Shown here one piece after another: positions 8,742-32,325 of a DNA stretch of 47,532 nucleotides. A model generated the notes under the pieces. The model was not told the origin of the DNA and made no database searches. It saw only the letters and a list, made by a program, of their open reading frames with translations. The translations under genes were made by a program, and so were the position numbers. Source of the DNA: a virus. Every line of letters starts with the position of its first letter. Within the stretch, counting starts at the first letter, position 1. The stretch lies in IMG/VR virus record IMGVR_UViG_3300046789_000012. One strand, given 5' to 3'.

Positions 8742-9027
8742 ACACTCGTTCCACGTCGACTAGAACGATCGACATCACGCAAAAGCCCTCGGGCACGCCG
8801 AACACATTCCCGCGCAGCACATACGTCACGAGTGCGCGCGCCTCGTCGCCGGTGTACGCCTGCGAGTCGGGCGACCACTCTCGCAGGCGTAGTCCGTCGC
8901 CGACCTGAAAGCCCCGATCGTCCCGCCGATACTCGAACCGCTTGAGCTCGCGCCGAATGTGCTCGAACGGTTCTGGCCAGCATCGCAGCTCGTGCAGCGT
9001 GCACGGCTTCGCTTTGTTCGCTGTCAC
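8740..9027 (-). CDS. ASCH-like / DUF3850-like small protein
   Basis: 95 aa; GTGA overlap with the recombinase stop. LHELRCWPEPFEHIRRELKRFEYRRDDRGFQVGDGLRLREW fits the remembered DUF3850 pattern. Confidence 0.65.
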   Translation of the reverse strand: MTANKAKPCTLHELRCWPEPFEHIRRELKRFEYRRDDRGFQVGDGLRLREWSPDSQAYTGDEARALVTYVLRGNVFGVPEGFCVMSIVLVDVERV

Positions 9028-9980
9028 AGGCCGATCCCTTTGCTCGCGTTGTGCTCGTCGAGCAGCCGAGCGTCGCGCACGTACCTGTCGACCATCTCGC
9101 GGCCGCGCCATCGCCCTTGCTGCATGATCGCCCTGTCTGTCTTGCCAGCTGCAGCCGCCGACGTCGCGAGGCCGGAGCGCAGCGAGTGTCCCGAGTAGCG
9201 AGCGGCGTCGAGGCCGACGCGCTCGACGCTGCGCTTCACGACCTCGGCGATCGCTGCGCCTCGCAGGCCTGCGTCGAGCACTCGACCGCCGCGCGACATG
9301 CGCCGCAGCAGACGGCCGCGCTTGAGCTTCGAGAGCACAAGCCACGCCTCGAGCGCCCGCACCGGGCACGTCTGCCGGTTGCGCCCTCGAGCGACGCCGA
9401 CGCGATGGCCTTTGCCTTGCTGGTCGGTCTTACTGCGACGGATCAGCACGACGAGGCCGCCCTTTGTACCCTCGACGTCGCGCACCTCGAGCGCTGCGAG
9501 CTCCGACCGGCGCAGCGCGCCGCTCATGCCGAGCGTCAAGATCACGCGATCACGCACGCCGATCGGCGAGTCGGGCAGGGCAGCGCAGACGCTTCGTAGC
9601 TCGGCGGCAGTGAGCGGCGCGACCTGCCGCTGCGGCTGACCGTGCGTGCGGCGCACGCCTTCCCACAGGCGCTTTATCCGTGGATCGCTCGTCGGCGTCG
9701 CGTGCGTGCTGTTCACGTGCACCCACGCGATCGCCGACAGCGCGACCGATAGCGTACTGATGCTGACCTGGTGCGCGCGCTCCGTCAGCCACAGCGCGAG
9801 CGTCTCGGCAGGGCAGGGCAGCGGCTCGAGCTCGCGCGCCTCGCACCACGCTTTGAAGAGTCGCCACTGCCGAGCGTACTCGGCGAGCGTCCGCTTCGAA
9901 CGCGAGGCCGCTTCGTACTGCCTCGCGCGCTGCGCGAACAGCGCGAGCTGTGCAGGATGGGCCCGTGTGATCGCGGTCAT
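9024..9980 (-). CDS. Cre-like tyrosine recombinase
   Basis: 318 aa; RVILTLGMSGALRRSELAAL (Arg I region), YSGHSLRSGLATSAA (H-x-x-R), IMQQGRWRGREMVDRYV (W ... Y nucleophile). Co-linear with remembered P1 Cre blocks. No lambda-Int-type arm-binding N-domain. Confidence 0.9.
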   Translation of the reverse strand: MTAITRAHPAQLALFAQRARQYEAASRSKRTLAEYARQWRLFKAWCEARELEPLPCPAETLALWLTERAHQVSISTLSVALSAIAWVHVNSTHATPTSDPRIKRLWEGVRRTHGQPQRQVAPLTAAELRSVCAALPDSPIGVRDRVILTLGMSGALRRSELAALEVRDVEGTKGGLVVLIRRSKTDQQGKGHRVGVARGRNRQTCPVRALEAWLVLSKLKRGRLLRRMSRGGRVLDAGLRGAAIAEVVKRSVERVGLDAARYSGHSLRSGLATSAAAAGKTDRAIMQQGRWRGREMVDRYVRDARLLDEHNASKGIGL

Positions 9981-14567: not shown

Positions 14568-15122
14568 ATGCAAGGTCGCGACGACTCAAACGACCCGCTA
14601 ACTATCGAGACTGCAGAGGCTCTCGATCTGCTGCGTGAAACCGCAGCTGACCTCTGCAGGCCAACAGGCGACGAGCCGTCGCTGCGCCTGCTCGCTCTAG
14701 CGCAAGCGATCGGCGTGCCCGGCGCCCTCTGGTCGCACGAGGTCGCCGACTGGCCAGCCGAGCGCCTCGCCGGCGCCATCGCCGTCTATCTCCAAGAAGT
14801 TTACGAATGGCCTTACTCGCGCGCCGCCCTCGAGCGCGCGGCGATGCAGGCTAGCGGCTATCCCGAGCCGACACGTCGACCCGCGCTCAGGCTGGTTTGC
14901 GGCGGCGGCGAGTCGCAGCGCGCCCGGCGTCGCGAAGCTTATCGGCTGTCAATCGGCCTCCGTGAGCTTCGACATGCGTACGCGCATCAATCAGGCGCTG
15001 CGCTGTCGTTTGACGAGCACCGCTGCCGGCATGTGGTGCTTTCGTGGTGGAGCTCAGTCGAGATGGCGCACGACTATCAGGCGCGGTTAGCGACGTATTG
15101 GGCCTTTCTTCGCAGTTCGTGA
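14568..15122 (+). CDS. Hypothetical protein (184 aa)
   Basis: SD-like aggggtgg upstream. Third-position G+C about 70 percent in its last 240 nt, higher than the opposing frame there. Confidence 0.5.
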   Translation: MQGRDDSNDPLTIETAEALDLLRETAADLCRPTGDEPSLRLLALAQAIGVPGALWSHEVADWPAERLAGAIAVYLQEVYEWPYSRAALERAAMQASGYPEPTRRPALRLVCGGGESQRARRREAYRLSIGLRELRHAYAHQSGAALSFDEHRCRHVVLSWWSSVEMAHDYQARLATYWAFLRSS

Positions 15123-15552
15123 CGTACTCCGTCAGCCACTCGAGCGTTGCAGGCTTCTGTCGACCGCGTATCGCGCGCTCGACCGACTCGATCAGCGTCT
15201 GACTCGCCTCGCGATCGGCCAAGAACGCCCGCACCTCGGCGACGCCGAGCACTGTCGGCGCTTCGAGCTCGGCGAGCGCAGCCGCGCGACCCTCGGTGCC
15301 GAATAGTAAAAGCTCAATGTCCGCATCGAGCAGCAGCGACGCTCGAACGAACAGCGGGATCGTTGGCATCGACCGCTCACGATCCCAATCGTCGAGCGTC
15401 GAGCCTGACACGCCGAGCAGCGCCGCAAAGCGTATGCGCGACAGGCCCTTAGCTGCGCGCAGCGACCATAGTCGCCGCTGCACACTCGTTTCCGCGTAGG
15501 GACTGACGCCCGACTCGGGCGCTGGCTTCATCGGGACCTTGCGATAGCTCAT
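14887..15552 (-). CDS. CI-like repressor (XRE HTH N-domain, low-complexity tail)
   Basis: 221 aa; LWSLRAAKGLSRIRFAALLGVSGSTLDDWDRERSMPT. Divergent from a Cro-like gene. By hand count, third-position G+C is about 76 percent for 15125..15552 and only about 54 percent for 14887..15124. Confidence 0.7.
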   Translation of the reverse strand: MSYRKVPMKPAPESGVSPYAETSVQRRLWSLRAAKGLSRIRFAALLGVSGSTLDDWDRERSMPTIPLFVRASLLLDADIELLLFGTEGRAAALAELEAPTVLGVAEVRAFLADREASQTLIESVERAIRGRQKPATLEWLTEYVTNCEERPNTSLTAPDSRAPSRLSSTTKAPHAGSGARQTTAQRLIDARTHVEAHGGRLTADKLRDAGRAATRRRRKPA

Positions 15553-22380: not shown

Positions 22381-22585
22381 CGGCGAGCAGACAAACGAAC
22401 AGCGTTTCGCTCGCTGCCGAGAGATCATCGCGCGGCAGCGCGCGAACCTCGTCGAGCGGGACGGCTGCACGGCCGCAGATACGCGCTGGGCCGAGCTGAC
22501 GACAGAGTTTGCCGCGCTGCAACTTGAGTTTGATCGACTGTTAGGTGCCACTCGCGAAGAACAAGCTTCACGCCCTGATCGCTGA
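22373..22585 (+). CDS. Hypothetical helical protein (70 aa)
   Basis: ATG 22373 overlaps the fibre-like gene stop by 8 nt (22373..22380). Overlaps the terL start by 41 nt. Confidence 0.45.
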   Translation: MADGEQTNEQRFARCREIIARQRANLVERDGCTAADTRWAELTTEFAALQLEFDRLLGATREEQASRPDR

Positions 22586-24011
22586 GAAAGCGCGCAGGGC
22601 CTCTCGGCTCGAGCGACGACCTGCCACGCTGCACGCGTACATTCGCGACGCCTGGCAGTACGTCGTGCCAAACGCGCCATTCGTCGACAACTGGCATGTG
22701 GGAGCGCTCGCCGAGCATCTCGAGGCGCAGTCACGCGGGCAGCTCGCGCGCCTCGTGATCAACGTGCCGCCGGGATCGTCCAAGTCGACGACCGTATGCG
22801 TGATGTGGCCGACCTGGGAATGGTCCTGGAAACCGGGCACGCAATGGCAATTTGGCGCTTACGCCGAGACGCTCGCTGTACGTGACTCGCTGCGCTGCCG
22901 CAGCTTGTTCGAGGGCGAATGGTACCGCGATCTATTCGGCGACGTCTGGCAGCCGCAGCGCGGCCGATGGCTGGCAAATTGGCTGCAGAACGACAAAGGA
23001 GGAATCAGGCAGGCGATCAGCGTCGGCGGCTCGCCGACAGGGTTTCACGCGCACAGACAAATTGTGGACGATCCAATCAAGCCGCTCGAGGCGCACTCGC
23101 CGACCGCGCTCGAGCGCTGCGATCGATGGTGGTTCGAAACGATGGCCTCTCGCGTGCTGCCCGGTAACAACACGCGCACGATCATAATGCAGCGCCTCGT
23201 CGACCGCGACCTCGCTGCGAAAGCTGCCGAGCAGGGCTACGCCGTGCTTTCGATGCCGATGCGTTACTACAGCGCGGCCGCTCGACCTGCGACGCCGCTC
23301 GGCTGGGTAGACCCGCGCACGCAAGAGGGCGAGTTGCTGTGTGAGGCGCGCTGGAACGATGCCGAAGTCGACCGGCGCAAGGCCGAATTTGGGCCCGACG
23401 GCTGGGCCGCGCAGGACCAACAAGACCCGGTCCCAGCAGGCGGCGCGATCTACCGCGAAGAGTGGATGCATCAGTATTACAAGGTGCCGCCGCGCCTCGA
23501 GGGCGCACTCGTCGTCATCACGTTTGACTGCGCCTTCAAGTCGCACGAGACAGCGAGTTATGTCGCCGGGCAGGTCTGGGCCTACAAGCCGCCCAACTTC
23601 TATTTGCTCGCTGAGGTGCGCGAACACCTTGATTTCATCGGCACGATCGCGGCCGTGAAGTCGCTTCATGCTCAGTTTCCCGAGGCGAACGCGATCCTCG
23701 TCGAGGACAAAGCGAACGGGCCCGCAGTGATCGAGGTACTCAAGCACGAGATCCCCGGCATCATTCCGATACTGCCCGACGGCAGCAAGATCGCTCGAGC
23801 GTACGCAACGCAACCGGTGTTTGCAGGCGGTAACGTCTGGCTACCTGACCCCTCGCTCGCGCCCTGGATTCTCGATTGGGTTATCGAACACAAGCGATTC
23901 CCTCGGGGCGTCGCAAACGACCGCGTAGACGCGCAGACGCAGGCGATCCGCTGGTGCTTGGCAGGCGGCCTGTCTGAGTACATGCAAGGCCTCGACGCCC
24001 TCGACCTCTAG
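22545..24011 (+). CDS. terL: Terminase large subunit
   Basis: 488 aa; GTG start right after an in-frame TAG. Walker A VINVPPGSSKST and nuclease-domain motif ILVEDKANGPAVIE. Confidence 0.9.
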   Translation: MPLAKNKLHALIAEKARRASRLERRPATLHAYIRDAWQYVVPNAPFVDNWHVGALAEHLEAQSRGQLARLVINVPPGSSKSTTVCVMWPTWEWSWKPGTQWQFGAYAETLAVRDSLRCRSLFEGEWYRDLFGDVWQPQRGRWLANWLQNDKGGIRQAISVGGSPTGFHAHRQIVDDPIKPLEAHSPTALERCDRWWFETMASRVLPGNNTRTIIMQRLVDRDLAAKAAEQGYAVLSMPMRYYSAAARPATPLGWVDPRTQEGELLCEARWNDAEVDRRKAEFGPDGWAAQDQQDPVPAGGAIYREEWMHQYYKVPPRLEGALVVITFDCAFKSHETASYVAGQVWAYKPPNFYLLAEVREHLDFIGTIAAVKSLHAQFPEANAILVEDKANGPAVIEVLKHEIPGIIPILPDGSKIARAYATQPVFAGGNVWLPDPSLAPWILDWVIEHKRFPRGVANDRVDAQTQAIRWCLAGGLSEYMQGLDALDL

Positions 24012-24271: not shown

Positions 24272-25732
24272 ATGGCCATCGAGCTACGCCTCGACAGTTG
24301 GGAGAACGCGCTAACCGGCCTCGGAACGCTCCGCGACAAGCTGCGCGCGCACGTTCCGCGCATGTCGTCGCAGCTGCCCGACAGCGCGCTCGAGGCGCTG
24401 CACACCGACGACGACATCTGCGCGAGGATAATCGAGCAGCTGCCCGGCGACGCCCTGCGCGCTGGTTTCTCGATTGCACTGCCGGCAGACTCCATCGCCG
24501 ACGCCTCGAGCACGGGAAAGAAGATCGACAAAGCACTCGCCACGCTCGGCGCCGAGTCGGCGCTGCGCGAGGCCTGGGTTTGGGGGCGTCTCTATGGTTT
24601 CGGCGCTGTCTTGCTCGGCGTCGACGACGGCCTGCCGCTCGACCAGCCGCTCGACATCGACCTCGTGCGCTCGCTCTCACACCTGACCGTGCTTAGACGC
24701 CCGCAGCTGCAGCAAGAGTCGTATTACGACGACATCTCACAGCCGAACTACGGCAAAGTCGAGACGTACCGCATCACGACCGCGGTACTGCCGCGAGGCT
24801 CGCAGAACCGGCAGGCGTACAAGGACAAGGCGACGCGCGACTTCGTCGTGCACGAGTCGCGCCTGCTTGCGTTTCGAGGCGCGCCTACGTCGCGATGGGG
24901 CGTGCAATCGGCGAGCGAATGGGACGACTCGATACTGCAGCGCGTCTATCAAGCCGTGCAGGCCTCGTCGTCGTCGTGGATGAGCGCCGCTCACCTCATG
25001 ACTGACGCGAGTCAGGGCGTACTGAAGATCACGAACCTAATGCAGCTGCTGACGGCGTCCGGCGAGGAAAAGCTGCGGCAGCGGATCAGGCTGATGGACC
25101 TAGGCCGCAGCGTCTGCCGCTCGCTGCTGATCGACGAGCGAGAAACGTTCGAGCGCACGCCGACGCCGTTCGCCGGCGTGCCCGAGCTGCTCGATCGCTT
25201 CATGATGCGTGTAGCGTCGGCGGCCGAAACGCCCGTGACGATCTTGTTTGGGAGGTCGCCGGCAGGCATGAACGCGACCGGCGATGCCGACATTCGCGCC
25301 TGGTACGACAAAGTCGGGACCGAGCGCGCTAAGCGCCTCACGCCGCAGATCGACAAGCTGGTGCGCGTGCTCACTGCGACGGACAAGGGCCCAACGAAAG
25401 GCGCTGTGATCGACGAGCTCGAGGTCGTCTATCCGCCGCTGTGGCAGCCGACATCGAAAGAACGCGCCGAGACACTCAAGATCACGGCAGACGCCCTCGC
25501 GACGCTCAAGAACGCGGGCATCATCCTGCCGGAAGAGGGCGCACTAAAGCTCGCGCACTGCGGCGAGTTTGACGAGCTCGACGTCGAGGCGCGCGAGGTC
25601 GCGCTGCGGCACGAGCTCGAGCGCCTCGCCGATCCCGAGCCTGAACCCGAGCCGAATCCGCCGGCGCTGCCGCCGCCGACGCCGCCGCCTGGCGCGCCGC
25701 CTGCACCGCCGCCGCCTAGATACGACGCATGA
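24272..25732 (+). CDS. Portal protein (DUF1073-like)
   Basis: 486 aa. The N-terminus LDSWENALTGLGTLRDK is typical of this portal family (recalled). Position after terL. Pro-rich C-terminal tail. Confidence 0.85.
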   Translation: MAIELRLDSWENALTGLGTLRDKLRAHVPRMSSQLPDSALEALHTDDDICARIIEQLPGDALRAGFSIALPADSIADASSTGKKIDKALATLGAESALREAWVWGRLYGFGAVLLGVDDGLPLDQPLDIDLVRSLSHLTVLRRPQLQQESYYDDISQPNYGKVETYRITTAVLPRGSQNRQAYKDKATRDFVVHESRLLAFRGAPTSRWGVQSASEWDDSILQRVYQAVQASSSSWMSAAHLMTDASQGVLKITNLMQLLTASGEEKLRQRIRLMDLGRSVCRSLLIDERETFERTPTPFAGVPELLDRFMMRVASAAETPVTILFGRSPAGMNATGDADIRAWYDKVGTERAKRLTPQIDKLVRVLTATDKGPTKGAVIDELEVVYPPLWQPTSKERAETLKITADALATLKNAGIILPEEGALKLAHCGEFDELDVEAREVALRHELERLADPEPEPEPNPPALPPPTPPPGAPPAPPPPRYDA

Positions 25733-28374
25733 CGCAGGCCGCCCTCGCCGCTCGCAGGCGCTTCGTGCGCGCCGCCGAAACGCGGCGAGCGCGCGTCGAC
25801 AGGCTCGACGCCGTGATCGCGCCCGTCGCGCTGCGGCCTGCCGAGTTTCCGCGCCTGCCGCTCGTCGGCTACCTCGCGACGCTGCTCGGCGTCGGTAAGC
25901 GCGTGCGTGAGACGATCGAGCACCACGTGCTACCCGAGCTGCCCGGCCTGGTCGCCGCTCGAGCGGCTGCGCCTCGGCGCGATGCCGCTTCGACGCCCGC
26001 ATCGGCGCGAGTCGCGGTCGTAGGTGGCCCTCGAGCAGGCAAGACGACGCTCGCCCTCGGCATCGCATGGAAGCTCGGCGGCCTGACCGTGCGGCACGCT
26101 GACGACCTGATCGGTCTCGGCTGGTCGGACGCAAGCGCGCTGCTCGCGCAGGAGATGCTAGCGAGTCATGGCGGCATCTTCGAGGGCGTCGCTGTCGTGC
26201 GGGGCCTGCGCAAGGCGCTCGCGATCAGCGCTCGAGCGCCTGTCGACGCGCTTGTGATCTTGCCCGACGCGCACGAGCCCCTCACGCCCGAGCAGCGCGC
26301 CATGTGGTCGGCGCAGGGCACGATCCTCGCTGGCATCCTGCCCGAGCTCGAGCGTCGCGGCGTGCGCATCGTGACGCCGCTCGCAGCAAACGCCCTCGAC
26401 TACGTGCACGCGAACGTGCAACCCGCAGCAGTACAGCGCAGCGACGCCGCCGACTCGACGCTCGCAGATGCATTCGCACGCGCTCGAGCGGCGCTGACCT
26501 ACGACATTCGCGCCGACATCGTGCGCGCAGGCCTGCGGACACTCGACTACGGCCGCGCCGAGCTCGAGCGGCAGATCGCCGCCGCGTTCCGCGTGCCGAC
26601 CTACACGCTGCAACCCGAGCAGCTGCAGCGCCGAGACGCCGCCTACGACCCGATCGCGACGATCAACCCGTTCGACCTCGGCGCAGGCGTCGGCGAGCAC
26701 CTCGACAAGTTCGTGCGCGCGCAGACCAAGCGCGTACGCGACATGACAGACGCGACCTACAGCGCCGCGCAGGCCTCTGTGCGGCACGGCCTCGAGCAAG
26801 GCCTGCGACCTGACGCCCTCGCTGCGCAGCTGATGCAGACCGTCGACGGCATCACGCAGACGCAAGCTGTCGTCATCGCGAACGACGCCGTCGGCAAGTT
26901 TCACGCGGAGACGACCAAGGTCCGTCAAGAGGCCCTCGGCATCGAGGAATACGACTGGCACACCGCCGGCGACGTAAAGGTCAGGCCTGGGCACCGCGCC
27001 CTCGAGGGCACGCGGCAGCGCTGGGATAAACCGCCTGTCGTCAATCCCAAGACAGGCAAGCGCGCGCATCCTGGTTTCGACACGCACTACTACGCCTGCC
27101 GCTGCGTCGCGCTGCCGGTCATCGATCCGGCAACGATCAGGATGCCGCCGGAGAGTCCAGACGCGCGACCGACGCGACCTCGGCGACCGCAGCAGGCTAC
27201 CCTGCCCGGCCTGCCGCCGAGGCCGCAGCCGCCGCCGATCCGCACCTCGCTACCGCCTGCGCCCGGTTCGCCGCCGGCTGCGCCGCCGAGCTCGCCGCGC
27301 TCGAGGGCGGCCGAGGCCGTCGGACTGCCCGCACCTCGCGCGCAGCCGCAGCCTGCGCCCGCACCTGCGCCGCAGCCGACCTCGGGACGCCCGTTGTCGC
27401 CGCCCTCGCCATCGCCCTACACGATCACAACGGCGACGCAGCCGCCTACCTCGGGCCCGATCGTCGAGCTCACCGTGCGCATTCCGCGGCCGCCGCCTGA
27501 CGTGCCGAGCTCGAGGCCTGCGCGCATCCCAGACCGACAGCGCATCGCCGACGACCTCACGCGCGCCGCAGAGGACATCGGCCTAGCCACCGCCAAGGGC
27601 CCGATCGAGGGCGGCCTACTGCGCAACCCCGTGCAGGGCATGCTCGACGACCTCGGCTATCAGCGCGTAGGACGCGCAGCGACGGCGACCTCGAACGCGA
27701 TCCGCACCTTCGAGCCGACCGCCGCCGACGCTGCGAGCGGCATCGTCGCGACTCGCAACGAGCACACAGGCACGCTGCGCCTCGCCGTCGACACGGCCGT
27801 CGAGCTCACGCACGCAGCCGAGGCGCTCTCACTGCGGCACGCGCCGACCGACGACGAGCTGCGAGCGCTACACACGCTCGTGCACGAAGAGTCGCACGCG
27901 TTCGGTCCTGCGCTCGAGTTTCGCGGCACCTCGAGCACGCGCTTTCTGCTGAACGAACTAACAACCGAGATTGCCGCGCGCGACGTAACAGCCGAGCTCG
28001 CAGGCTTGCCGACGCACCTGCGCGATCGGCATCCGCTCGCGATGCCAGCTTTCCGCGGCAAGCCTGGCGACCTGCGCGGCAGCTTCTCAGTCGTGCGCTC
28101 GAGGCCGTTTGACAGCACGATCGCCGCGACACAACATGCCCTGCGTGACGTCACACAGTGGAGCCCTGGACAGGTTACCGACGCCCTCGTCGAGGCATCG
28201 CATGCGTGGAAACGCACCGCCATCACGTTCACGGACGAGCAGCAGGCGCGCACCTACTTCGCGAGCCTCGTGCCCGACCTCGACGAGGCGCAGCGCGCAG
28301 CGTTCGCCGACCTGCTCGCCGACCGCGACCTGCTGCTCGAGCGGCATCACTACGACCTATTCGCCAAGCGCTAG
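25729..28374 (+). CDS. Multi-domain minor head protein: P-loop NTPase-like + MuF/SPP1 gp7 domain + Pro-rich linker + HExxH domain
   Basis: 881 aa; ATGA overlap with portal. GGPRAGKTT (26023..26049); DWHTAGDVKVRPGHRALEG ... YYACRCVALP (about 26953..27120); proline-rich 27130..27560; LVHEESHAF (HExxH at 27883..27897). Confidence 0.85.
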   Translation: MTQAALAARRRFVRAAETRRARVDRLDAVIAPVALRPAEFPRLPLVGYLATLLGVGKRVRETIEHHVLPELPGLVAARAAAPRRDAASTPASARVAVVGGPRAGKTTLALGIAWKLGGLTVRHADDLIGLGWSDASALLAQEMLASHGGIFEGVAVVRGLRKALAISARAPVDALVILPDAHEPLTPEQRAMWSAQGTILAGILPELERRGVRIVTPLAANALDYVHANVQPAAVQRSDAADSTLADAFARARAALTYDIRADIVRAGLRTLDYGRAELERQIAAAFRVPTYTLQPEQLQRRDAAYDPIATINPFDLGAGVGEHLDKFVRAQTKRVRDMTDATYSAAQASVRHGLEQGLRPDALAAQLMQTVDGITQTQAVVIANDAVGKFHAETTKVRQEALGIEEYDWHTAGDVKVRPGHRALEGTRQRWDKPPVVNPKTGKRAHPGFDTHYYACRCVALPVIDPATIRMPPESPDARPTRPRRPQQATLPGLPPRPQPPPIRTSLPPAPGSPPAAPPSSPRSRAAEAVGLPAPRAQPQPAPAPAPQPTSGRPLSPPSPSPYTITTATQPPTSGPIVELTVRIPRPPPDVPSSRPARIPDRQRIADDLTRAAEDIGLATAKGPIEGGLLRNPVQGMLDDLGYQRVGRAATATSNAIRTFEPTAADAASGIVATRNEHTGTLRLAVDTAVELTHAAEALSLRHAPTDDELRALHTLVHEESHAFGPALEFRGTSSTRFLLNELTTEIAARDVTAELAGLPTHLRDRHPLAMPAFRGKPGDLRGSFSVVRSRPFDSTIAATQHALRDVTQWSPGQVTDALVEASHAWKRTAITFTDEQQARTYFASLVPDLDEAQRAAFADLLADRDLLLERHHYDLFAKR

Positions 28375-28383
28375 GGGCCTGCA

Positions 28384-28650
28384 GTGGCAGACTTGAGCAC
28401 GGCACAGCGCCTCGCCGACTCGCTCTACCCCTGGAGCTACGACGGCGCGCTGCGCGTTGTGCGCGCGTACCTCGCCGAGCCGCAGCACGGCGACGCATCG
28501 CCGGAGCTCGTCTATGAGCTTGTGACAGGCTCGACCATGACCGAAGACGAGCTGCAGCGGTTCCCTGTCGAGGTGCAGCGGCTGCGCGTCGAGCACTTCG
28601 CAGCGCTCGCGCAGCCGCTGCCGCGCTGGCAGGCCTGGCCGATCATCTAG
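28384..28650 (+). CDS. Hypothetical protein (88 aa) directly after the MuF fusion gene
   Basis: GTG start 9 nt after the MuF stop. No domain recognised. Confidence 0.5.
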   Translation: MADLSTAQRLADSLYPWSYDGALRVVRAYLAEPQHGDASPELVYELVTGSTMTEDELQRFPVEVQRLRVEHFAALAQPLPRWQAWPII

Positions 28651-29054
28651 CTTTGCTCGTCGAGCGGCGTGTATGTGACCCGCGTGTACACCTGGCCAGC
28701 GGGCCCGCGCGCGGCCGCCTGCAGCTCGCAGACGCATCGGCAGCGCCGACACACCTCGAGCCGCACGCCGCCGTCGGCGCCCTCGAATCGCCAATCGTGC
28801 GCGCCCTGCCACGGCCAACACGGCGGCGGCTGCGCCGGCAGCTCGACGAAAGCTCGACCGCTCTCGCCGCTCGACTCGCACAGCGCCGAGACCTCGAGCA
28901 GCTGCGTCGAGCGGCAGCGCCTCGCATGCGCCTCGACGTCGACGCGCGCGAGCGCCATCGCTAGCGCGAGCTCGGCTGCGTTGCCGCCGCTGCCCGCTTC
29001 GAGCTCGACGACCGTGTAAGGCTCGTCGCCTTCGCTGAGTATCCAATGCGCCAT
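28647..29054 (-). CDS. Reverse-oriented moron: Cys-rich hypothetical protein (135 aa)
   Basis: ATG 29054 is preceded by AGGAGG at 9 nt and by a TTGACG-18-TATAGC promoter. C-terminal CWPWQGAHDW ... CRRCRCVCE. Confidence 0.65.
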   Translation of the reverse strand: MAHWILSEGDEPYTVVELEAGSGGNAAELALAMALARVDVEAHARRCRSTQLLEVSALCESSGESGRAFVELPAQPPPCWPWQGAHDWRFEGADGGVRLEVCRRCRCVCELQAAARGPAGQVYTRVTYTPLDEQS

Positions 29055-29080
29055 GAGACACAACCTCCTATGCACTCGAC

Positions 29081-29395: not shown

Positions 29396-30649
29396 GTGAC
29401 TGTAGTGGCCGCCGTGCAGGTCACGAGATACGACGCTGCTCGGCTCGGCAACACTCGGCGCACGCCGCAGGGGTTTCTGCGAGCGCCTGCGCGCGTCACG
29501 AGGACCGGTGTGCTCGTCTACAAGCGCGCCGACGGCAGCGTCGTGCGCGAGCTCAGGCGACCCGAGGAAGTGTTCCGCGCCGAGTCGATTGCGACGCTCG
29601 CCGACGCGCCAGTGACCGACCTGCACCCTCGCGAGATGGTGTCGCCGGCGAACGTGCAGACGCTCTCCGTCGGGCACGTGTCGGGCACGAGCGCGCGCGC
29701 AGACGCCGGCCGCTTCGTCGAGGCCGACCTCGTGATCACTGACGCCCGCATGATCAAGGCCATCGAGGCCGGCAGCCGGCGCGAGGTCAGCTGCGGCTAC
29801 AGCTGCAAACTCGTCAACAAGCCGGGCACCTACAACGGCGAAAAGTACGACGCCGAGCAAGTCGACATCACATACAACCATGTCGGCTTAGGGCCTCAAA
29901 AATGGGGCCGCGCTGGTTCCGAGGTCGCGCTGCGCCTCGACGGAAGCGCCGACGATCACTCGCTGCACGACGACGCTGCACACGCAGTGCTGCGCGACGA
30001 CGACCGCGACGACGACGACAACAAAGGACGCCCTATGGAACTGGTAATGATCCGGCTCGACGGACTCGAGGCGCAGGTCACGCCGCCGGCCGCTCAGATC
30101 GTGCAGCGCACGCTCGAGCAGCGCGACAGCAAGATCGCCGAACAGGCGGCCGCCCTCGCGCAGCTGCAAACACGCTTCGACGCCGTGCGCGGCGAGGCCG
30201 ACGCAGCGAAGGCAAAGCTCGCCGAGGCGAGCGACCCGGAACGCTTCGAGGCCGCCGTGCGCGACCGACTCGCGCTGCTCGAGCGAGTGCGTCCCGTGCT
30301 CGGCGCCGAGTCAAAGCTCGACGGCCTGTCGCCGCGCGAGATCAAACTAAAGGCGCTCGCCAAGCTCAAGCCTGGTCAGGCGTTCGATAAAGAGTCAGAC
30401 GCCTACGTCGACGCGCGCCTCGACGGCGCCCTCGAGCTCGTCGCCGACAAGCGCTCGAGCAACAGCGGCGGCGGCAACAGCGCCGACGACCTGCGCCGCA
30501 GCCTGCACGGCAACCGCTCGCAGCAGACGGCCGCCCTCGACGTGCGCGCAATCCTCGCCGGTAACCAGCGCACCGACGCCGCCGACGCCAAGCCGCCGAC
30601 GTTCGAGCCGCCTGCGTGGCGCACAAAGCTCGCCGCTTCGCGCGAGTAG
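29396..30649 (+). CDS. Prohead scaffold/protease-like protein (DUF2213-like)
   Basis: 417 aa; QGFLRAPARVTRTGVLVY, REVSCGYSC and ITYNHVGLGP match the remembered DUF2213 pattern. Acidic stretch, then a coiled-coil C-half. The start could instead be GTG 29405 or 29414. Confidence 0.75.
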   Translation: MTVVAAVQVTRYDAARLGNTRRTPQGFLRAPARVTRTGVLVYKRADGSVVRELRRPEEVFRAESIATLADAPVTDLHPREMVSPANVQTLSVGHVSGTSARADAGRFVEADLVITDARMIKAIEAGSRREVSCGYSCKLVNKPGTYNGEKYDAEQVDITYNHVGLGPQKWGRAGSEVALRLDGSADDHSLHDDAAHAVLRDDDRDDDDNKGRPMELVMIRLDGLEAQVTPPAAQIVQRTLEQRDSKIAEQAAALAQLQTRFDAVRGEADAAKAKLAEASDPERFEAAVRDRLALLERVRPVLGAESKLDGLSPREIKLKALAKLKPGQAFDKESDAYVDARLDGALELVADKRSSNSGGGNSADDLRRSLHGNRSQQTAALDVRAILAGNQRTDAADAKPPTFEPPAWRTKLAASRE

Positions 30650-30707: not shown

Positions 30708-31193
30708 ATGCAACTCACCTATTCAGCGACGACGCCGATCGGCGTGCACGGTCAAAAGATCGAGGCATGGCCCTCGGCAATCGACACAGGCCTCGCCTCG
30801 GGCACTGTGATCCCCGTCGGCATCGTCGTCGTATACGACACCGCCGCAGGCCGCGACCCGGCATCCGTCCGACAGCCTGCACTTACCACCGAGGTAACAG
30901 TGCTGACCGGCGTCGCTGGTTTCGCGCTGTGGGACCCGACCTATCCCGAGCCGCCCTATCGAGTCGGCTCATCGCTGCCCGTGATGCGCAAGGGCCGTTT
31001 TGCTGTCGTAGGCGAGACCGCCCTCGCCGTGCACACGAATCCGTTCGTCCGCTTCGGACTAGTCGGCGCTGGCACGATCCTCGGCGCTCTCCGCAGTGAC
31101 TCCGACGCAGGCAACGCCGTTGCCGCGCCTTACCTCACAGTCGTCGTAGGCGCAGCCGCAGGCGGCGTCGCGGTCGTCGAGATCAACCTCTGA
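30708..31193 (+). CDS. Head-associated beta-rich protein (possible decoration/cement protein)
   Basis: 161 aa; Gly/Val/Ala-rich. Lies between the scaffold and major capsid genes. Confidence 0.55.
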   Translation: MQLTYSATTPIGVHGQKIEAWPSAIDTGLASGTVIPVGIVVVYDTAAGRDPASVRQPALTTEVTVLTGVAGFALWDPTYPEPPYRVGSSLPVMRKGRFAVVGETALAVHTNPFVRFGLVGAGTILGALRSDSDAGNAVAAPYLTVVVGAAAGGVAVVEINL

Positions 31194-31239: not shown

Positions 31240-32325
31240 ATGCCCGGTACCTCACTCGTCAGCACGCACACGCTAGACAGGCTCGACGCCAACCTGCTCG
31301 AGCTGCAACTCGCGCAGATCGGCCAACGACTCGACGAGGACGCATTCGCTAACGTCGTGCTCGCGATGGCGCACACGCGCGCGCAGCTCTACGGAATCGA
31401 GCGCCTCGACGCGAACGAGACTGCTTTGTTCGGGAGAGATCTCGAATACATCTCGGCGCGCCTGCGCGAGATTCACCGCCCACAGCTCAAATGGAGGCAG
31501 TTCGTGCCCGTCACGTCAGAGGCGCCCGCAGGCGCTGAAACGTGGTCCTATAAGATGTGGGACGCGCTCGGGATGGCCGAAATTGTGGCCAACTACGCCG
31601 ACGACATTCGCCGTGTCGGCGTGACCGCGCAGAAGTTCACCTACGACATCGCGACCTGGGCCCTCGGCTACGACTACACAGTCTTAGACATCGAGCGCGC
31701 TTCGATGGCAGGGGTGAACTATCAGAACCAGCAGGCCGACGCCGTGCGTCGCGGCTTCGAGCTGCGTTTCGAACGCATCGCCTCACTCGGGCAAACAGGC
31801 ACGAACATCAAGGGCCTGTTGAATCACCCTAACGTGCCCGTGATCGCGGCGACGACTGTCGGCGCTGGGTCTGCGTGGGGCGCTGGCACCAAGACGCCCG
31901 ACGACGTTTTGAAGGACATGATCGCCGCCGAGGACTCGATCGTGACTGCGACGCAGGGCGTCGAGTCGCCTGATACGCTGCTGCTTCCGCTCGCGAAATT
32001 CCGATACATCCAAAACACGCCCGTCTACACCGGCGCTGGCAGCGACCCGGAAGACACGATCCTTAGCGTGTACCTGCGCCGCAGCGCCTACGTGACTAAC
32101 GTCGACTGGTGGCTGCCGCTCGCGACCGCAAACTCGGCAGGCACAGGCGCTCGCGCGCTCTGGTATCGGCGTGACCCGCGGTACGTCCACTTCGAGCTGA
32201 CCATGCCGCCGCGCGAGCTGCCGCCGCAGACAAAGAACCTCGCGCTGTCCGTCGAGTCGTGGACTCGCGCAGGCGGCGTCTGCTGGGAGTACCCGCTTTC
32301 GGCTGTCTACATGGACGGAATCTAG
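31240..32325 (+). CDS. Major capsid protein (DUF2184-like, HK97-fold class)
   Basis: 361 aa. Position after the scaffold, size, and sequence reminiscent of DUF2184 capsid proteins that accompany DUF1073 portals (recalled). Confidence 0.8.
   Translation: MPGTSLVSTHTLDRLDANLLELQLAQIGQRLDEDAFANVVLAMAHTRAQLYGIERLDANETALFGRDLEYISARLREIHRPQLKWRQFVPVTSEAPAGAETWSYKMWDALGMAEIVANYADDIRRVGVTAQKFTYDIATWALGYDYTVLDIERASMAGVNYQNQQADAVRRGFELRFERIASLGQTGTNIKGLLNHPNVPVIAATTVGAGSAWGAGTKTPDDVLKDMIAAEDSIVTATQGVESPDTLLLPLAKFRYIQNTPVYTGAGSDPEDTILSVYLRRSAYVTNVDWWLPLATANSAGTGARALWYRRDPRYVHFELTMPPRELPPQTKNLALSVESWTRAGGVCWEYPLSAVYMDGI

What the first reader, a model, noticed from the sequence alone, without database searches (positions are those of the whole stretch)
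25729..28374. 881-aa polyvalent head protein: P-loop NTPase-like + MuF domain + 140-aa proline-rich linker + C-terminal HExxH (zincin-like) domain
Four elements are seen in one ORF coupled to the portal gene. There is a Walker-A-like GGPRAGKTT (26023..26049) in a ~150-aa N-terminal segment. The MuF/SPP1-gp7 hallmark W-x-T-x-G-D-x-x-V-R-x-x-H ... C-R-C lies at about 26953..27120. A proline-rich low-complexity spacer runs from 27130 to 27560. The C-terminal ~270 aa contains LVHEESHAF (27883..27897), with NELTTE about 20 residues later as a possible third zinc ligand. MuF-family minor head proteins are packaged in the capsid. Many are fused to effector or toxin domains, described in the literature as polyvalent proteins and MuF polymorphic toxins, that are thought to be ejected into the host with the DNA. 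My inference is that this protein delivers a kinase/NTPase-like and a metallopeptidase-like activity at infection. The small gene right after it (28384..28650) could be a cognate inhibitor or immunity factor, which is pure speculation. I do not recall this N-terminal P-loop plus C-terminal zincin combination as a described architecture.
Basis: partly seen in the sequence, partly recalled or inferred. Interest (0 to 1): 0.7.

Follow-up and report, generated by a model that had tools for sequence, protein, structure and literature searches.

The report
Phage head protein carrying swappable enzymes

Summary
ORF 25729..28374 (881 aa) is real, overlaps the portal stop codon, and contains every motif at the stated coordinates.

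- **MuF core:** passes the curated Pfam and NCBIfam cut-offs.
- **N-terminal module:** a genuine P-loop kinase-fold domain. Foldseek matches shikimate, adenylate and thymidylate kinases (E about 2e-4, probability 1.0). It is a clean ~150-aa insertion into the MuF N-terminal helices and is absent from related MuF proteins.
- **C-terminal ~240 aa:** belong to a rare family with no match in Pfam, PHROGs, NCBIfam, PADLOC, PDB sequences or 50,697 GenBank phages. HExxH plus a thermolysin-like ExxxE about 20 residues later is conserved in 15 of 18 members. The AlphaFold model is confident (pLDDT 87), but Foldseek gives no significant zincin match, so the zincin fold is probable, not shown.
- **Cargo swapping:** close relatives keep P-loop, MuF and proline linker but carry a DGRHR domain or a third, unrelated domain instead.
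- **Partner gene:** homologues of 28384..28650 follow the HExxH type in 8 independent contexts and are absent from all swapped variants. This supports a cognate partner but not its role.

Delivery into the host and catalysis are untested. Novelty: new variant of a known kind. Interest: moderate.

The parts
24272..25732 (+). Portal gene. Its stop overlaps the ATG of the MuF gene.
   Evidence: PF06381 E 7.6e-80; PHROG 146
25729..28374 (+). 881-aa polyvalent MuF-type minor head protein (whole ORF).
   Evidence: the same single-ORF architecture is seen in L001, P0002-P0005, P0007 and P0013
25729..25968 (+). N-terminal MuF helices (aa 1-80). These align with the N-termini of MuF relatives that lack the P-loop.
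   Evidence: AF2 helices 3-29, 42-66, 68-80; alignment
25975..25986 (+). RRDA motif in the disordered linker just upstream of the P-loop insert (aa 83-86).
   Evidence: pLDDT <50 at aa 82-89; motif conserved at this position
26002..26418 (+). Inserted P-loop kinase-fold domain (aa 92-230).
   Evidence: AF2 pLDDT 85-94; Foldseek hits to shikimate/adenylate/thymidylate kinase and Fap7, E 2.4e-4, prob 1.0, TMt about 0.5; PDB profile hits to adenylate kinases and a putative kinase
26023..26049 (+). Walker A motif, GGPRAGKTT.
   Evidence: G99, P101, G104, K105, T107 invariant
26095..26106 (+). HADD motif after strand 2 (H123 and D125 invariant). It occupies the position of the acceptor-binding Asp motif of P-loop kinases; that correspondence is inferred.
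26179..26214 (+). FEGV (Walker-B-like E152) followed by the R158 / LRK160-162 motif.
26437..26448 (+). RSDA motif in the disordered linker just downstream of the P-loop insert (aa 237-240).
   Evidence: pLDDT <50 at aa 233-240
26596..27141 (+). MuF / SPP1-gp7 head-morphogenesis core (aa 290-471; Pfam match aa 349-461).
   Evidence: PF04233 E 1.2e-11; PHROG 324 E 3.3e-30; TIGR01641
27130..27561 (+). Proline-rich linker (aa 468-611, 30.6% Pro). It contains a conserved ELTVRIPRP element at 27466..27492.
27646..28371 (+). C-terminal HExxH/ExxxE domain (aa 640-881), a new MuF-associated family.
   Evidence: exhaustive HMMER search, 16 hits; alignment; AF2 pLDDT 87.2, pTM 0.87
27883..27897 (+). HEESH (H719, E720, H723), at the C-terminal end of predicted helix 69-83 of the model.
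27952..27969 (+). NELTTE (E743, E747) on the next helix. This is an ExxxE arrangement that parallels the thermolysin NExxSD motif.
   Evidence: the thermolysin comparison comes from general knowledge, not a tool result
28384..28650 (+). 88-aa partner gene. It co-occurs strictly with the HExxH-type C-terminus.
   Evidence: no match to any known family

Best explanation
This is a polyvalent minor head protein of a temperate, contractile-tailed phage.

The MuF/SPP1-gp7 core, whose gene overlaps the portal stop codon (suggesting translational coupling), is the conserved scaffold. By homology it recruits the protein to the portal of the procapsid.

Two accessory modules have been grafted onto that scaffold:
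1. A ~140-aa P-loop kinase-fold domain, inserted between the first and second helical segments of the MuF N-terminus and bounded by disordered linkers.
2. A ~240-aa domain at the end of a ~140-aa proline-rich tether. It carries a gluzincin-type motif set: HExxH on one helix and ExxxE on the next, with 20 residues between the second His and the Glu.

The C-terminal module behaves as an exchangeable cassette. Close relatives with the same scaffold carry other C-terminal domains. The HExxH cassette always travels with a small downstream gene, a homologue of 28384..28650, which overlaps or closely abuts it.

Most likely the protein is packaged in a few copies through the MuF-portal interaction and leaves the capsid with the DNA. 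It would then bring a phosphotransferase/NTPase and a metal-dependent hydrolase into the newly infected cell. The small protein would act as the cognate regulator of the HExxH domain in the producing cell, as an inhibitor/immunity factor or as a chaperone.

Shown here: the domain identities, the insertion, the cassette swapping and the partner linkage. Inferred: packaging, ejection, catalysis, targets and the partner's role.
For: - **MuF core and position:** MuF core above curated cut-offs and directly after the portal. The head module is homologous to Pbunavirus Pa193/E217 (PF09979, PF22758, PF09950). In Pa193 the unassigned products gp20 and gp21, encoded near the capsid and neck genes, were found in virions by LC-MS (PMC11456595).
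- **P-loop domain:** AF2 pLDDT 85-94, and Foldseek hits to P-loop kinases with prob 1.0 and E 2.4e-4. Catalytic-type residues are invariant. It is a clean insertion that is absent from P0010, P0012 and P0017; P0012's contig (L020) carries the same head-module type, so it is accessory and not needed for assembly.
- **C-terminal family:** HExxH, ExxxE and R are conserved. The confident model places the two motifs on consecutive helices after a three-stranded sheet, which is the layout Iyer et al. give for polyvalent-protein metallopeptidases (PMC5512222). The best TM-scores in the PDB search are all gluzincins of families M4, M1 and M9.
- **Cassette swapping:** L002-L010 and L027-L034 keep P-loop, MuF and linker but end in a DGRHR domain. 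L031 ends in a third domain.
- **Partner linkage:** homologues lie directly downstream in L001, L011, L012-14, L015, L017, L018 and L020 (hmmsearch E 1e-24 to 1e-41 with an HMM that included L018 and L020; with the HMM built without them they scored 3e-8 and 9e-6). None is found in any swapped locus.
- **Temperate lifestyle:** a tyrosine integrase and an HTH regulator are present, matching the reported restriction of MuF toxins to temperate phages (PMC5576092).
Against: - No significant structural match of the C-terminal model to any solved or viral predicted zincin (best E 0.24).
- No sequence-profile match to Pfam (which is expected to include the polyvalent-protein metallopeptidase models) or to the PDB.
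- hhalign against the N4 vRNAP metallopeptidase region aligned only the HExxH helix, with probability 8.9%.
- Two members have lost zinc-binding histidines (P0002 has HEEMK, P0003 has REHAF). P0003's contig (L011) still carries the partner gene; P0002's was not examined. So catalysis is not universally required.
- The window's own copy deviates from the family consensus (NE instead of EE; RPFD instead of RxYD).
- No substrate can be named for either enzyme-like domain.
- Nothing here shows that the protein is in virions or is ejected.
Confidence: 0.6

Rival explanations
1. The HExxH domain is a cis-acting or in-capsid processing peptidase. It would cut the polyvalent protein itself, for example in the proline linker or at the RxDA linkers, to release the modules. 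It would not be an effector acting on host proteins. The small partner would hold it inactive until assembly.
For: - Iyer et al. propose exactly this role for metallopeptidase domains of polyvalent proteins, citing P1 DdrB processing (PMC5512222).
- The domain co-occurs with other cargo in single proteins: P0016 has HExxH plus a DGRHR domain, and P0014 has two HExxH copies.
- Conserved RxDA motifs sit in disordered linkers on both sides of the P-loop insert.
Against: - Relatives with the same P-loop, MuF and linker, and the same RxDA sites, lack the HExxH domain entirely. Processing at those sites cannot depend on it.
- Members with degenerate HExxH persist.
Confidence: 0.2
2. It is a MuF polymorphic toxin in the sense of Jamet et al. 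The C-terminal domain would be a growth-inhibiting toxin used against competitors of the lysogen, and 28384..28650 would be its immunity protein.
For: - The C-terminus is variable on a conserved MuF N-terminus.
- A small ORF (<150 aa) lies immediately downstream.
- The phage is temperate.
These are all features listed in PMC5576092 and all are met here.
Against: - The swapped DGRHR and third-type variants have no detectable downstream small ORF before the conserved minus-strand gene. That is atypical if all the cargoes were self-toxic.
- Toxicity is untested.
- An inserted N-terminal enzyme is not part of the polymorphic-toxin layout.
Confidence: 0.3
3. The extra modules are structural or assembly parts, not effectors. 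The HExxH domain would be a catalytically irrelevant docking platform that brings the small protein into the head. The P-loop domain would be an assembly or packaging NTPase.
For: - Two family members lack the zinc histidines. The one whose contig was examined (P0003, L011) still has the partner gene.
- Standalone P-loop homologues sit inside packaging/head modules. In L037 the gene is directly upstream of a Mu-type portal and an S78 prohead protease.
Against: - Both modules are dispensable in relatives with the same head module.
- Conserved polar residues look catalytic: the HExxH Glu, E747, R751 and K828 in the C-terminal domain, and K105, D125, E152 and R158 in the P-loop domain.
Confidence: 0.1

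Closest known systems
MuF polymorphic toxins of temperate phages (Jamet et al. 2017, PMC5576092)
   Same: A MuF domain next to the portal, a variable C-terminal extension, a small ORF immediately downstream and a temperate phage. Metallopeptidase domains make up 20% of the described MuF toxin domains.
   Different: The C-terminal domain matches none of the known toxin or Pfam families. It is unrelated to the C-terminus of Mu F, which I used as a proxy for their Ct_MAD domain. An additional enzyme-fold domain is inserted inside the MuF N-terminus. The group was described mainly in Firmicutes and in known Proteobacterial phages, whereas this one is seen only in metagenomic contigs.
Polyvalent proteins with zincin-like metallopeptidase (MPTase) domains (Iyer et al. 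2017, PMC5512222), e.g. P1 DdrB and N4 vRNAP
   Same: Several enzyme-type domains in one virion-associated polypeptide. MuF, MPTase and ParB-type domains are hubs of that network. The sheet, then HExxH helix, then Glu helix layout is shared. MuF fused to a zeta-toxin-like P-loop kinase is mentioned in that paper.
   Different: No profile-level link to their MPTase clades (Pfam negative; N4 hhalign probability 8.9%). An extra helix lies between the sheet and the HExxH helix. The kinase-fold domain is not zeta-like by Pfam, and it is an internal insert rather than a terminal fusion. A dedicated small partner gene is not a described feature.
Thermolysin-type gluzincins (MEROPS M4; also M1, M9)
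   Same: HExxH followed 20 residues later by N-E-x-x-[ST]-[DE] on the next helix (thermolysin has HELTH ... NEAISD; this is from general knowledge). These families give the best TM-scores in the PDB fold search.
   Different: TM only 0.26-0.34, RMSD about 10 A, E 0.5-2.7, which is not significant. The domain is much smaller (~240 aa). No sequence-profile match.
P-loop kinases of the NMP-kinase / shikimate-kinase / Fap7 class
   Same: GxPxxGK[ST]T Walker A, an Asp motif after strand 2, an acidic residue at the end of strand 3, and the five-strand topology. Foldseek probability 1.0. PDB profile hits to adenylate kinases.
   Different: Only ~140 aa with minimal NMP-binding and LID regions. No Pfam family reaches its threshold (AAA_18 E 2.5e-5 in the standalone homologue P0001, below the cut-off). 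The substrate is unknown.
SPP1 gp7 / Mu gpF minor head proteins
   Same: The Pfam/TIGRFAM core domain, the position after the portal, and the N-terminal helical region.
   Different: About twice the size, with three additional segments (P-loop insert, proline tether, HExxH domain).

Membership tests
MuF / SPP1 gp7 minor head protein (PF04233, TIGR01641) | Profile match above the curated cut-off | tested here: met
   PF04233 45.8 bits against 29.6; TIGR01641 51.9 against 39.65; PHROG 324 E 3.3e-30
MuF / SPP1 gp7 minor head protein (PF04233, TIGR01641) | Gene located in the packaging/head module next to the portal | tested here: met
   Order is terminase, portal, this gene, scaffold-like DUF2213, cement, major capsid
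MuF / SPP1 gp7 minor head protein (PF04233, TIGR01641) | Present in virions, bound to the portal | not testable with these tools
   Indirect only: Pa193, with a homologous head module, has its unassigned gp20/gp21 products in virions by LC-MS (PMC11456595)
MuF polymorphic toxin (Jamet 2017) | C-terminal extension that varies between relatives sharing the N-terminal MuF region | tested here: met
   Three unrelated C-termini on the same P-loop-MuF-linker scaffold
MuF polymorphic toxin (Jamet 2017) | Small ORF (<150 aa) immediately downstream, cognate to the C-terminal domain | tested here: met
   The 88-aa gene is present; homologues follow the HExxH type in 8 contexts and none follows the swapped types
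MuF polymorphic toxin (Jamet 2017) | Encoded by a temperate phage | tested here: met
   Tyrosine integrase 9024..9980 (-), PF00589 E 2.3e-12; HTH protein 14887..15552 (-)
MuF polymorphic toxin (Jamet 2017) | C-terminal domain is toxic and is neutralised by the downstream protein | not testable with these tools
   Needs expression experiments
Zincin / gluzincin metallopeptidase | HExxH on a helix | tested here: met
   HEESH at aa 719-723, at the end of model helix 69-83; conserved in 15 of 18 members
Zincin / gluzincin metallopeptidase | Third ligand Glu on the following helix | tested here: met
   E743/E747 on model helix 97-118. E747 is invariant. E743 is Glu in most members, with Asp or Asn in the two that have a degenerate HExxH.
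Zincin / gluzincin metallopeptidase | Fold similarity to solved zincins | tested here: inconclusive
   No hit with E <= 0.001. M4/M1/M9 enzymes appear at E 0.5-2.7 with TM 0.26-0.34. BFVD gives nothing significant.
Zincin / gluzincin metallopeptidase | Zinc binding and peptidase activity | not testable with these tools
   Biochemistry needed
Polyvalent-protein MPTase clades (Iyer 2017; Pfam MPTase-PolyVal) | Profile-level homology | tested here: not met
   No Pfam family for any of the 16 members at E <= 10. hhalign to the N4 vRNAP MPTase region gives probability 8.9% over the HExxH helix only.
P-loop kinase fold (NMPK / shikimate kinase-like) | Walker A motif plus the kinase-type alpha/beta fold | tested here: met
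   Walker A residues invariant. Foldseek probability 1.0, E 2.4e-4 to shikimate, adenylate and thymidylate kinases and Fap7.
Zeta-toxin-like kinase (the P-loop kinase previously reported fused to MuF) | Match to the Zeta_toxin profile | tested here: not met
   No Pfam hit for the window domain at E <= 10. Homologues hit only the generic families AAA_18, AAA_33 and SKI, all below threshold.

The most novel reading that the evidence does not exclude
The HExxH domain plus its 55-100-aa partner would be a new two-component enzyme/regulator cassette: a novel gluzincin family with a dedicated inhibitor or immunity protein. Temperate phages would plug it onto the MuF delivery scaffold.

The P-loop kinase-fold insert would be a second cargo, excised inside the capsid at the conserved RxDA linkers that flank it, and injected as a free enzyme that modifies a host nucleotide or macromolecule. 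That would make this a dual-payload, protease-released injection device.
Probability: 0.2. Interest if true: 0.7.

Novelty: new variant of a known kind. Interest (0 to 1): 0.5.

Why it matters
MuF-type head proteins are thought to be a general vehicle by which phages deliver enzymes into the cell with their DNA. Very few of the cargoes have been tested.

This locus offers a compact natural experiment. One scaffold carries three interchangeable C-terminal cargoes. There is also an unusual internal P-loop kinase-fold insert.

It gives clear constructs for testing four things: whether the cargo is packaged, whether it is released by cleavage, what it targets, and whether the partner is an inhibitor. 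It would also add two uncharacterised families (the HExxH domain and its partner), and a third, weakly kinase-like P-loop family, to the catalogue of phage effector modules.

Tried and rejected
1. **Word-index homology searches.** The C-terminus found nothing and the N-terminus found one protein. The database evidently lacks the IMG/VR relatives. The exhaustive HMMER run was needed.
2. **Known-family searches.** Pfam, PHROGs, NCBIfam, PADLOC and PDB sequence searches of the C-terminal domain, its family members and the small partner were all negative. The repeated PDB hit to staphylococcal protein A is a short helix-motif match at the extreme C-terminus, with per-domain E-values above 40. I disregarded it.
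3. **GenBank phages.** tblastn of the C-terminal domain (the window's own copy and a consensus-like member) against 50,697 phages found no match even at E <= 1.
4. **GTDB genomes.** Two scans found no relatives, so the host stays unknown.
5. **Is the domain Ct_MAD of Jamet et al.?** The Ct_MAD HMM (251 positions) was too costly to rebuild. The Mu F C-terminus, used as a proxy, is unrelated (probability 0.1). This rejects identity only indirectly.
6. **Relatives' DGRHR C-terminus as ParB.** No Pfam or PDB support. It stays a motif-level resemblance.
7. **L031's third cargo as an ADP-ribosyltransferase.** It shows an R / SxS / ExE pattern only, with no Pfam hit.
8. **HExxH domain as the essential prohead protease.** Rejected, because relatives with the same head module lack the domain.
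9. **RxDA as the prohead-protease site.** The motif is enriched in head proteins (12 observed against 2.0 expected). However, the portal C-terminal instance is not conserved, and the capsid instance lies in a generally conserved stretch. Left unexplained.

Full report
**1. The observation**

The ORF 25729..28374 (+) is 881 aa and starts with an ATG that overlaps the stop codon of the portal gene (24272..25732; PF06381, E 7.6e-80). The local gene order is:
- large terminase (22545..24011)
- a small ORF
- portal
- this gene
- an 88-aa gene (28384..28650)
- a conserved minus-strand 142-aa ORF (28647..29075)
- a DUF2213/Pa193_gp24-type protein (29396..30649)
- cement protein (30708..31193)
- major capsid protein (31240..32325)

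Tail sheath, tape measure and baseplate genes follow. A tyrosine integrase (9024..9980, minus strand, PF00589 E 2.3e-12) and an HTH protein (14887..15552, minus strand) mark the phage as temperate.

The spacer at aa 468-611 is 30.6% proline, against 5.4% elsewhere.

**2. MuF core**

PF04233 matches aa 349-461 (45.8 bits, cut-off 29.6). TIGR01641 also matches above its cut-off. PHROG 324 ("head morphogenesis") covers aa 290-471. In 50,697 GenBank phages only this region (aa ~223-473) finds relatives.

**3. Relatives**

IMG/VR holds one full-length relative (L001, 77% identity) and nine contigs at about 49% identity that match only aa ~38-526. Translating those ORFs shows the same N-terminal P-loop region, MuF core and proline-rich linker. 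The C-terminus is different: ~105 aa containing LTDGRHRMAAARAAG.

An exhaustive HMMER search with aa 600-881 against 1.84 billion representatives found 16 proteins (5 at E <= 1e-10). In nearly all of them the match lies at the C-terminal end of MuF-type proteins. One match is in a Mu-type portal fusion and two are in short standalone proteins.

A metagenome scan with the P-loop alignment found:
- the window's own locus (L025)
- more DGRHR-type proteins
- one protein (L031) with a third, unrelated C-terminal domain
- standalone 125-231-aa P-loop proteins

. No relative exists in the species-representative genomes.

**4. N-terminal module**

Eight homologues share these invariant residues: G99, P101, G104, K105, T107 (Walker A), H123, D125, G131-W-S, E152-G-V, R158 and L160-R-K.

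- The AlphaFold model (8 sequences) gives pLDDT 85-94 for aa 94-230, with a five-strand alpha/beta topology. It is flanked by disordered segments at aa 82-89 and 233-240.
- Foldseek against the PDB returns shikimate kinase, adenylate kinase, thymidylate kinase and Fap7/hCINAP at E 2.4e-4 and above, probability 1.0, target TM about 0.5.
- A profile search of PDB sequences points the same way: adenylate kinases and a "putative kinase" (2rhm) that matches across most of the domain.
- No Pfam family passes its threshold. The standalone homologues hit AAA_18, AAA_33 and SKI below their cut-offs, and Zeta_toxin is not hit.

Aligning the window protein with MuF relatives that lack the domain (P0010, P0012, P0017) shows that the ~150 aa are a clean insertion between the first N-terminal helices and the next helical segment. 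The locus checked for a P-loop-less relative (L020, P0012) has the same portal/DUF2213/cement/capsid module, so the insert is not needed for assembly.

The region is not ordinary MuF helices.

**5. C-terminal module**

The 17-sequence alignment shows these conserved elements:
- hhHE(E)xHGxG
- hhEExxTExxAR, about 20 residues later
- HPLALP
- RxYD
- a conserved Lys

. In the curated alignment the HExxH Glu, E747 and R751 are invariant, and H719, T746 and K828 are nearly so. HExxH is intact in 15 of 18 members when L001 is counted. P0002 (80% identical to the window) has HEEMK and P0003 has REHAF.

The window's N742-E743-L-T-T-E747 places E743 twenty residues after H723, followed by an acidic residue four positions on. 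From general knowledge, this is the spacing and ExxxD/E arrangement of thermolysin (HELTH ... NEAISD).

The AlphaFold model built on 16 sequences is confident (pLDDT 87.2, pTM 0.87). Its elements, in model numbering, are:
- three strands (21-25, 35-38, 43-47)
- a helix (48-62)
- the HExxH helix (69-83)
- the Glu helix (97-118)
- five further helices

. This resembles the sheet, HExxH helix, Glu helix core that Iyer et al. describe for polyvalent-protein metallopeptidases (PMC5512222), with one extra helix.

Foldseek, however, finds nothing significant in the PDB or BFVD. The best E-value is 0.24. The highest TM-scores (0.26-0.34) belong to M4, M1 and M9 gluzincins at E 0.5-2.7.

Other negative or weak comparisons:
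- Pfam is negative at E <= 10 for every member.
- PDB sequence profiles are negative.
- GenBank phages give no match at E <= 1.
- hhalign to the N4 vRNAP metallopeptidase region aligns only the HExxH helix, probability 8.9%.
- The Mu F C-terminus, used as a proxy for Ct_MAD, is unrelated.

A metal-dependent hydrolase is the most likely reading, but the zincin fold is not demonstrated.

**6. The small downstream gene**

Within the window's phage group the 88-aa gene is present in L001 (85% identity). It is absent from all nine DGRHR-type loci, where the MuF gene is followed directly by the conserved minus-strand ORF.

Contigs encoding more distant HExxH-type proteins all have a homologous small ORF immediately downstream, often overlapping the stop codon:
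- L011 (P0003)
- L012-14 (P0004)
- L015 (P0005)
- L017 (P0013)
- L018 (P0006; different terminase and capsid genes, and its portal-position gene has no Pfam hit)
- L020 (P0012)

Pairwise identity is 27-49%. hmmsearch E-values are 1e-24 to 1e-41 with an HMM that included L018 and L020; with the HMM built without those two, they scored 3e-8 and 9e-6.

Three further contexts (L021, L023, L024) have 54-55-aa ORFs there that share only a short "LQDDP"-type motif with the N-terminal half of the family. The L031 type has no such ORF. The partner family matches nothing known.

So the C-terminal domain and the small gene form one cassette. What the partner does is not shown. It is also kept by the histidine-less member whose contig was examined (P0003, L011), which argues that it is not only a catalytic inhibitor.

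**7. How it most likely works**

- Shown: a conserved MuF scaffold carrying two dispensable, enzyme-like add-ons, with the C-terminal one exchangeable and paired with a partner gene.
- From established knowledge of MuF/SPP1 gp7 and the two comparative studies (PMC5576092, PMC5512222): such proteins are incorporated into procapsids through the portal, and their fused domains are thought to enter the host with the DNA.
- Inferred here: the P-loop domain is a phosphotransferase or NTPase, and the HExxH domain is a metal-dependent hydrolase, both acting early in infection. The proline tether allows an extended state. The partner regulates the HExxH domain in the producer cell.

The main alternatives are Iyer's self-processing peptidase role, a competitor-killing toxin/immunity pair (Jamet), or non-catalytic structural roles. 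The fact that relatives with the same scaffold and linkers do without the HExxH domain argues against an essential morphogenetic or self-processing role.

**8. Comparison and novelty**

The theme is known. Metallopeptidases are 20% of described MuF toxin domains. MuF, MPTase and ParB-type domains are hubs of polyvalent proteins. A zeta-toxin-like P-loop kinase fused to MuF has been noted.

What is new here:
- the HExxH family itself
- its obligate small partner
- the kinase-fold domain being an internal insert of a family that is not zeta-like
- the direct view of three cargo types on one scaffold

I rate it a new variant of a known kind, of moderate interest.

Noticed in passing
window 25975..25986, 26437..26448, 26629..26640; also 29396..30649, 31240..32325: The tetrapeptide R-x-D-A occurs 5 times in the MuF protein (0.9 expected). 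The instances at aa 83 and 237 sit in the disordered linkers that flank the P-loop insert; the other three are at aa 25, 301 and 360 (the last inside the MuF region). P-loop-less relatives have a single RxDA at the same site. Across portal, MuF, DUF2213 and the major capsid protein there are 12 instances against 2.0 expected. Other window proteins show 7 against roughly 4 expected. It may be a protease or docking site. The portal instance is not conserved, and the capsid instance (RLDANE, aa 55-60) lies in a generally conserved stretch.
   Followed up: partly
window 28647..29075 (-): A Cys-rich 142-aa ORF on the minus strand sits inside the otherwise plus-strand head module. It is conserved (52-74% identity) in all related loci regardless of cargo type. 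No Pfam, PHROG or PADLOC match.
   Followed up: partly
L036:807-1334, L037:4863-5525, L038:701-1396; P0001: Standalone homologues of the P-loop domain (125-231 aa) exist. Several end in a shared tail, ...SRW(S/N)..PGRGFG. In L037 the gene lies directly upstream of a Mu-type portal (PF06074, E 6e-62) and an S78 prohead protease, so this kinase-fold family is associated with head modules even when it is not fused to MuF.
   Followed up: partly
L031:4803-7253: A close relative carries a third C-terminal cargo on the same P-loop-MuF-linker scaffold. Its sequence shows an R (LFRG) ... SxS (SSWSAS) ... ExE (EIEFAL) pattern reminiscent of ADP-ribosyltransferases. Pfam finds nothing, and there is no small downstream ORF.
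   Followed up: partly
L002-L010, L027-L034 (C-terminal ~105 aa of the MuF ORFs); P0016 aa ~450-520: The alternative cargo has an invariant DGRHR...A..R..G motif resembling ParB/sulfiredoxin-type domains, but no Pfam or PDB profile hit. P0016 combines this domain with the HExxH domain in one MuF protein.
   Followed up: partly
window 27466..27492: A short conserved non-proline element, (I/V)ELTVRIPRP, lies inside the proline-rich linker just before the HExxH domain. It is shared by L001, P0002, P0003 and P0004. Its function is unknown.
   Followed up: no
window 9024..9980 (-), 14887..15552 (-): A tyrosine integrase and an HTH (repressor-like) gene are present, so the window looks like a complete or near-complete temperate myovirus-type genome. 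A near-identical 47,258-bp metagenomic contig exists (L025, Ga0137433_1000090).
   Followed up: partly
window 28225..28330 (aa ~833-866): The last helices of the C-terminal domain (vP.Lt.eQR.aF...L.D) repeatedly hit the staphylococcal protein A three-helix repeat in PDB sequence searches. The summed E-value is 4e-5 because of the five repeats, but each repeat alone is not significant. This is probably a chance helix motif.
   Followed up: no
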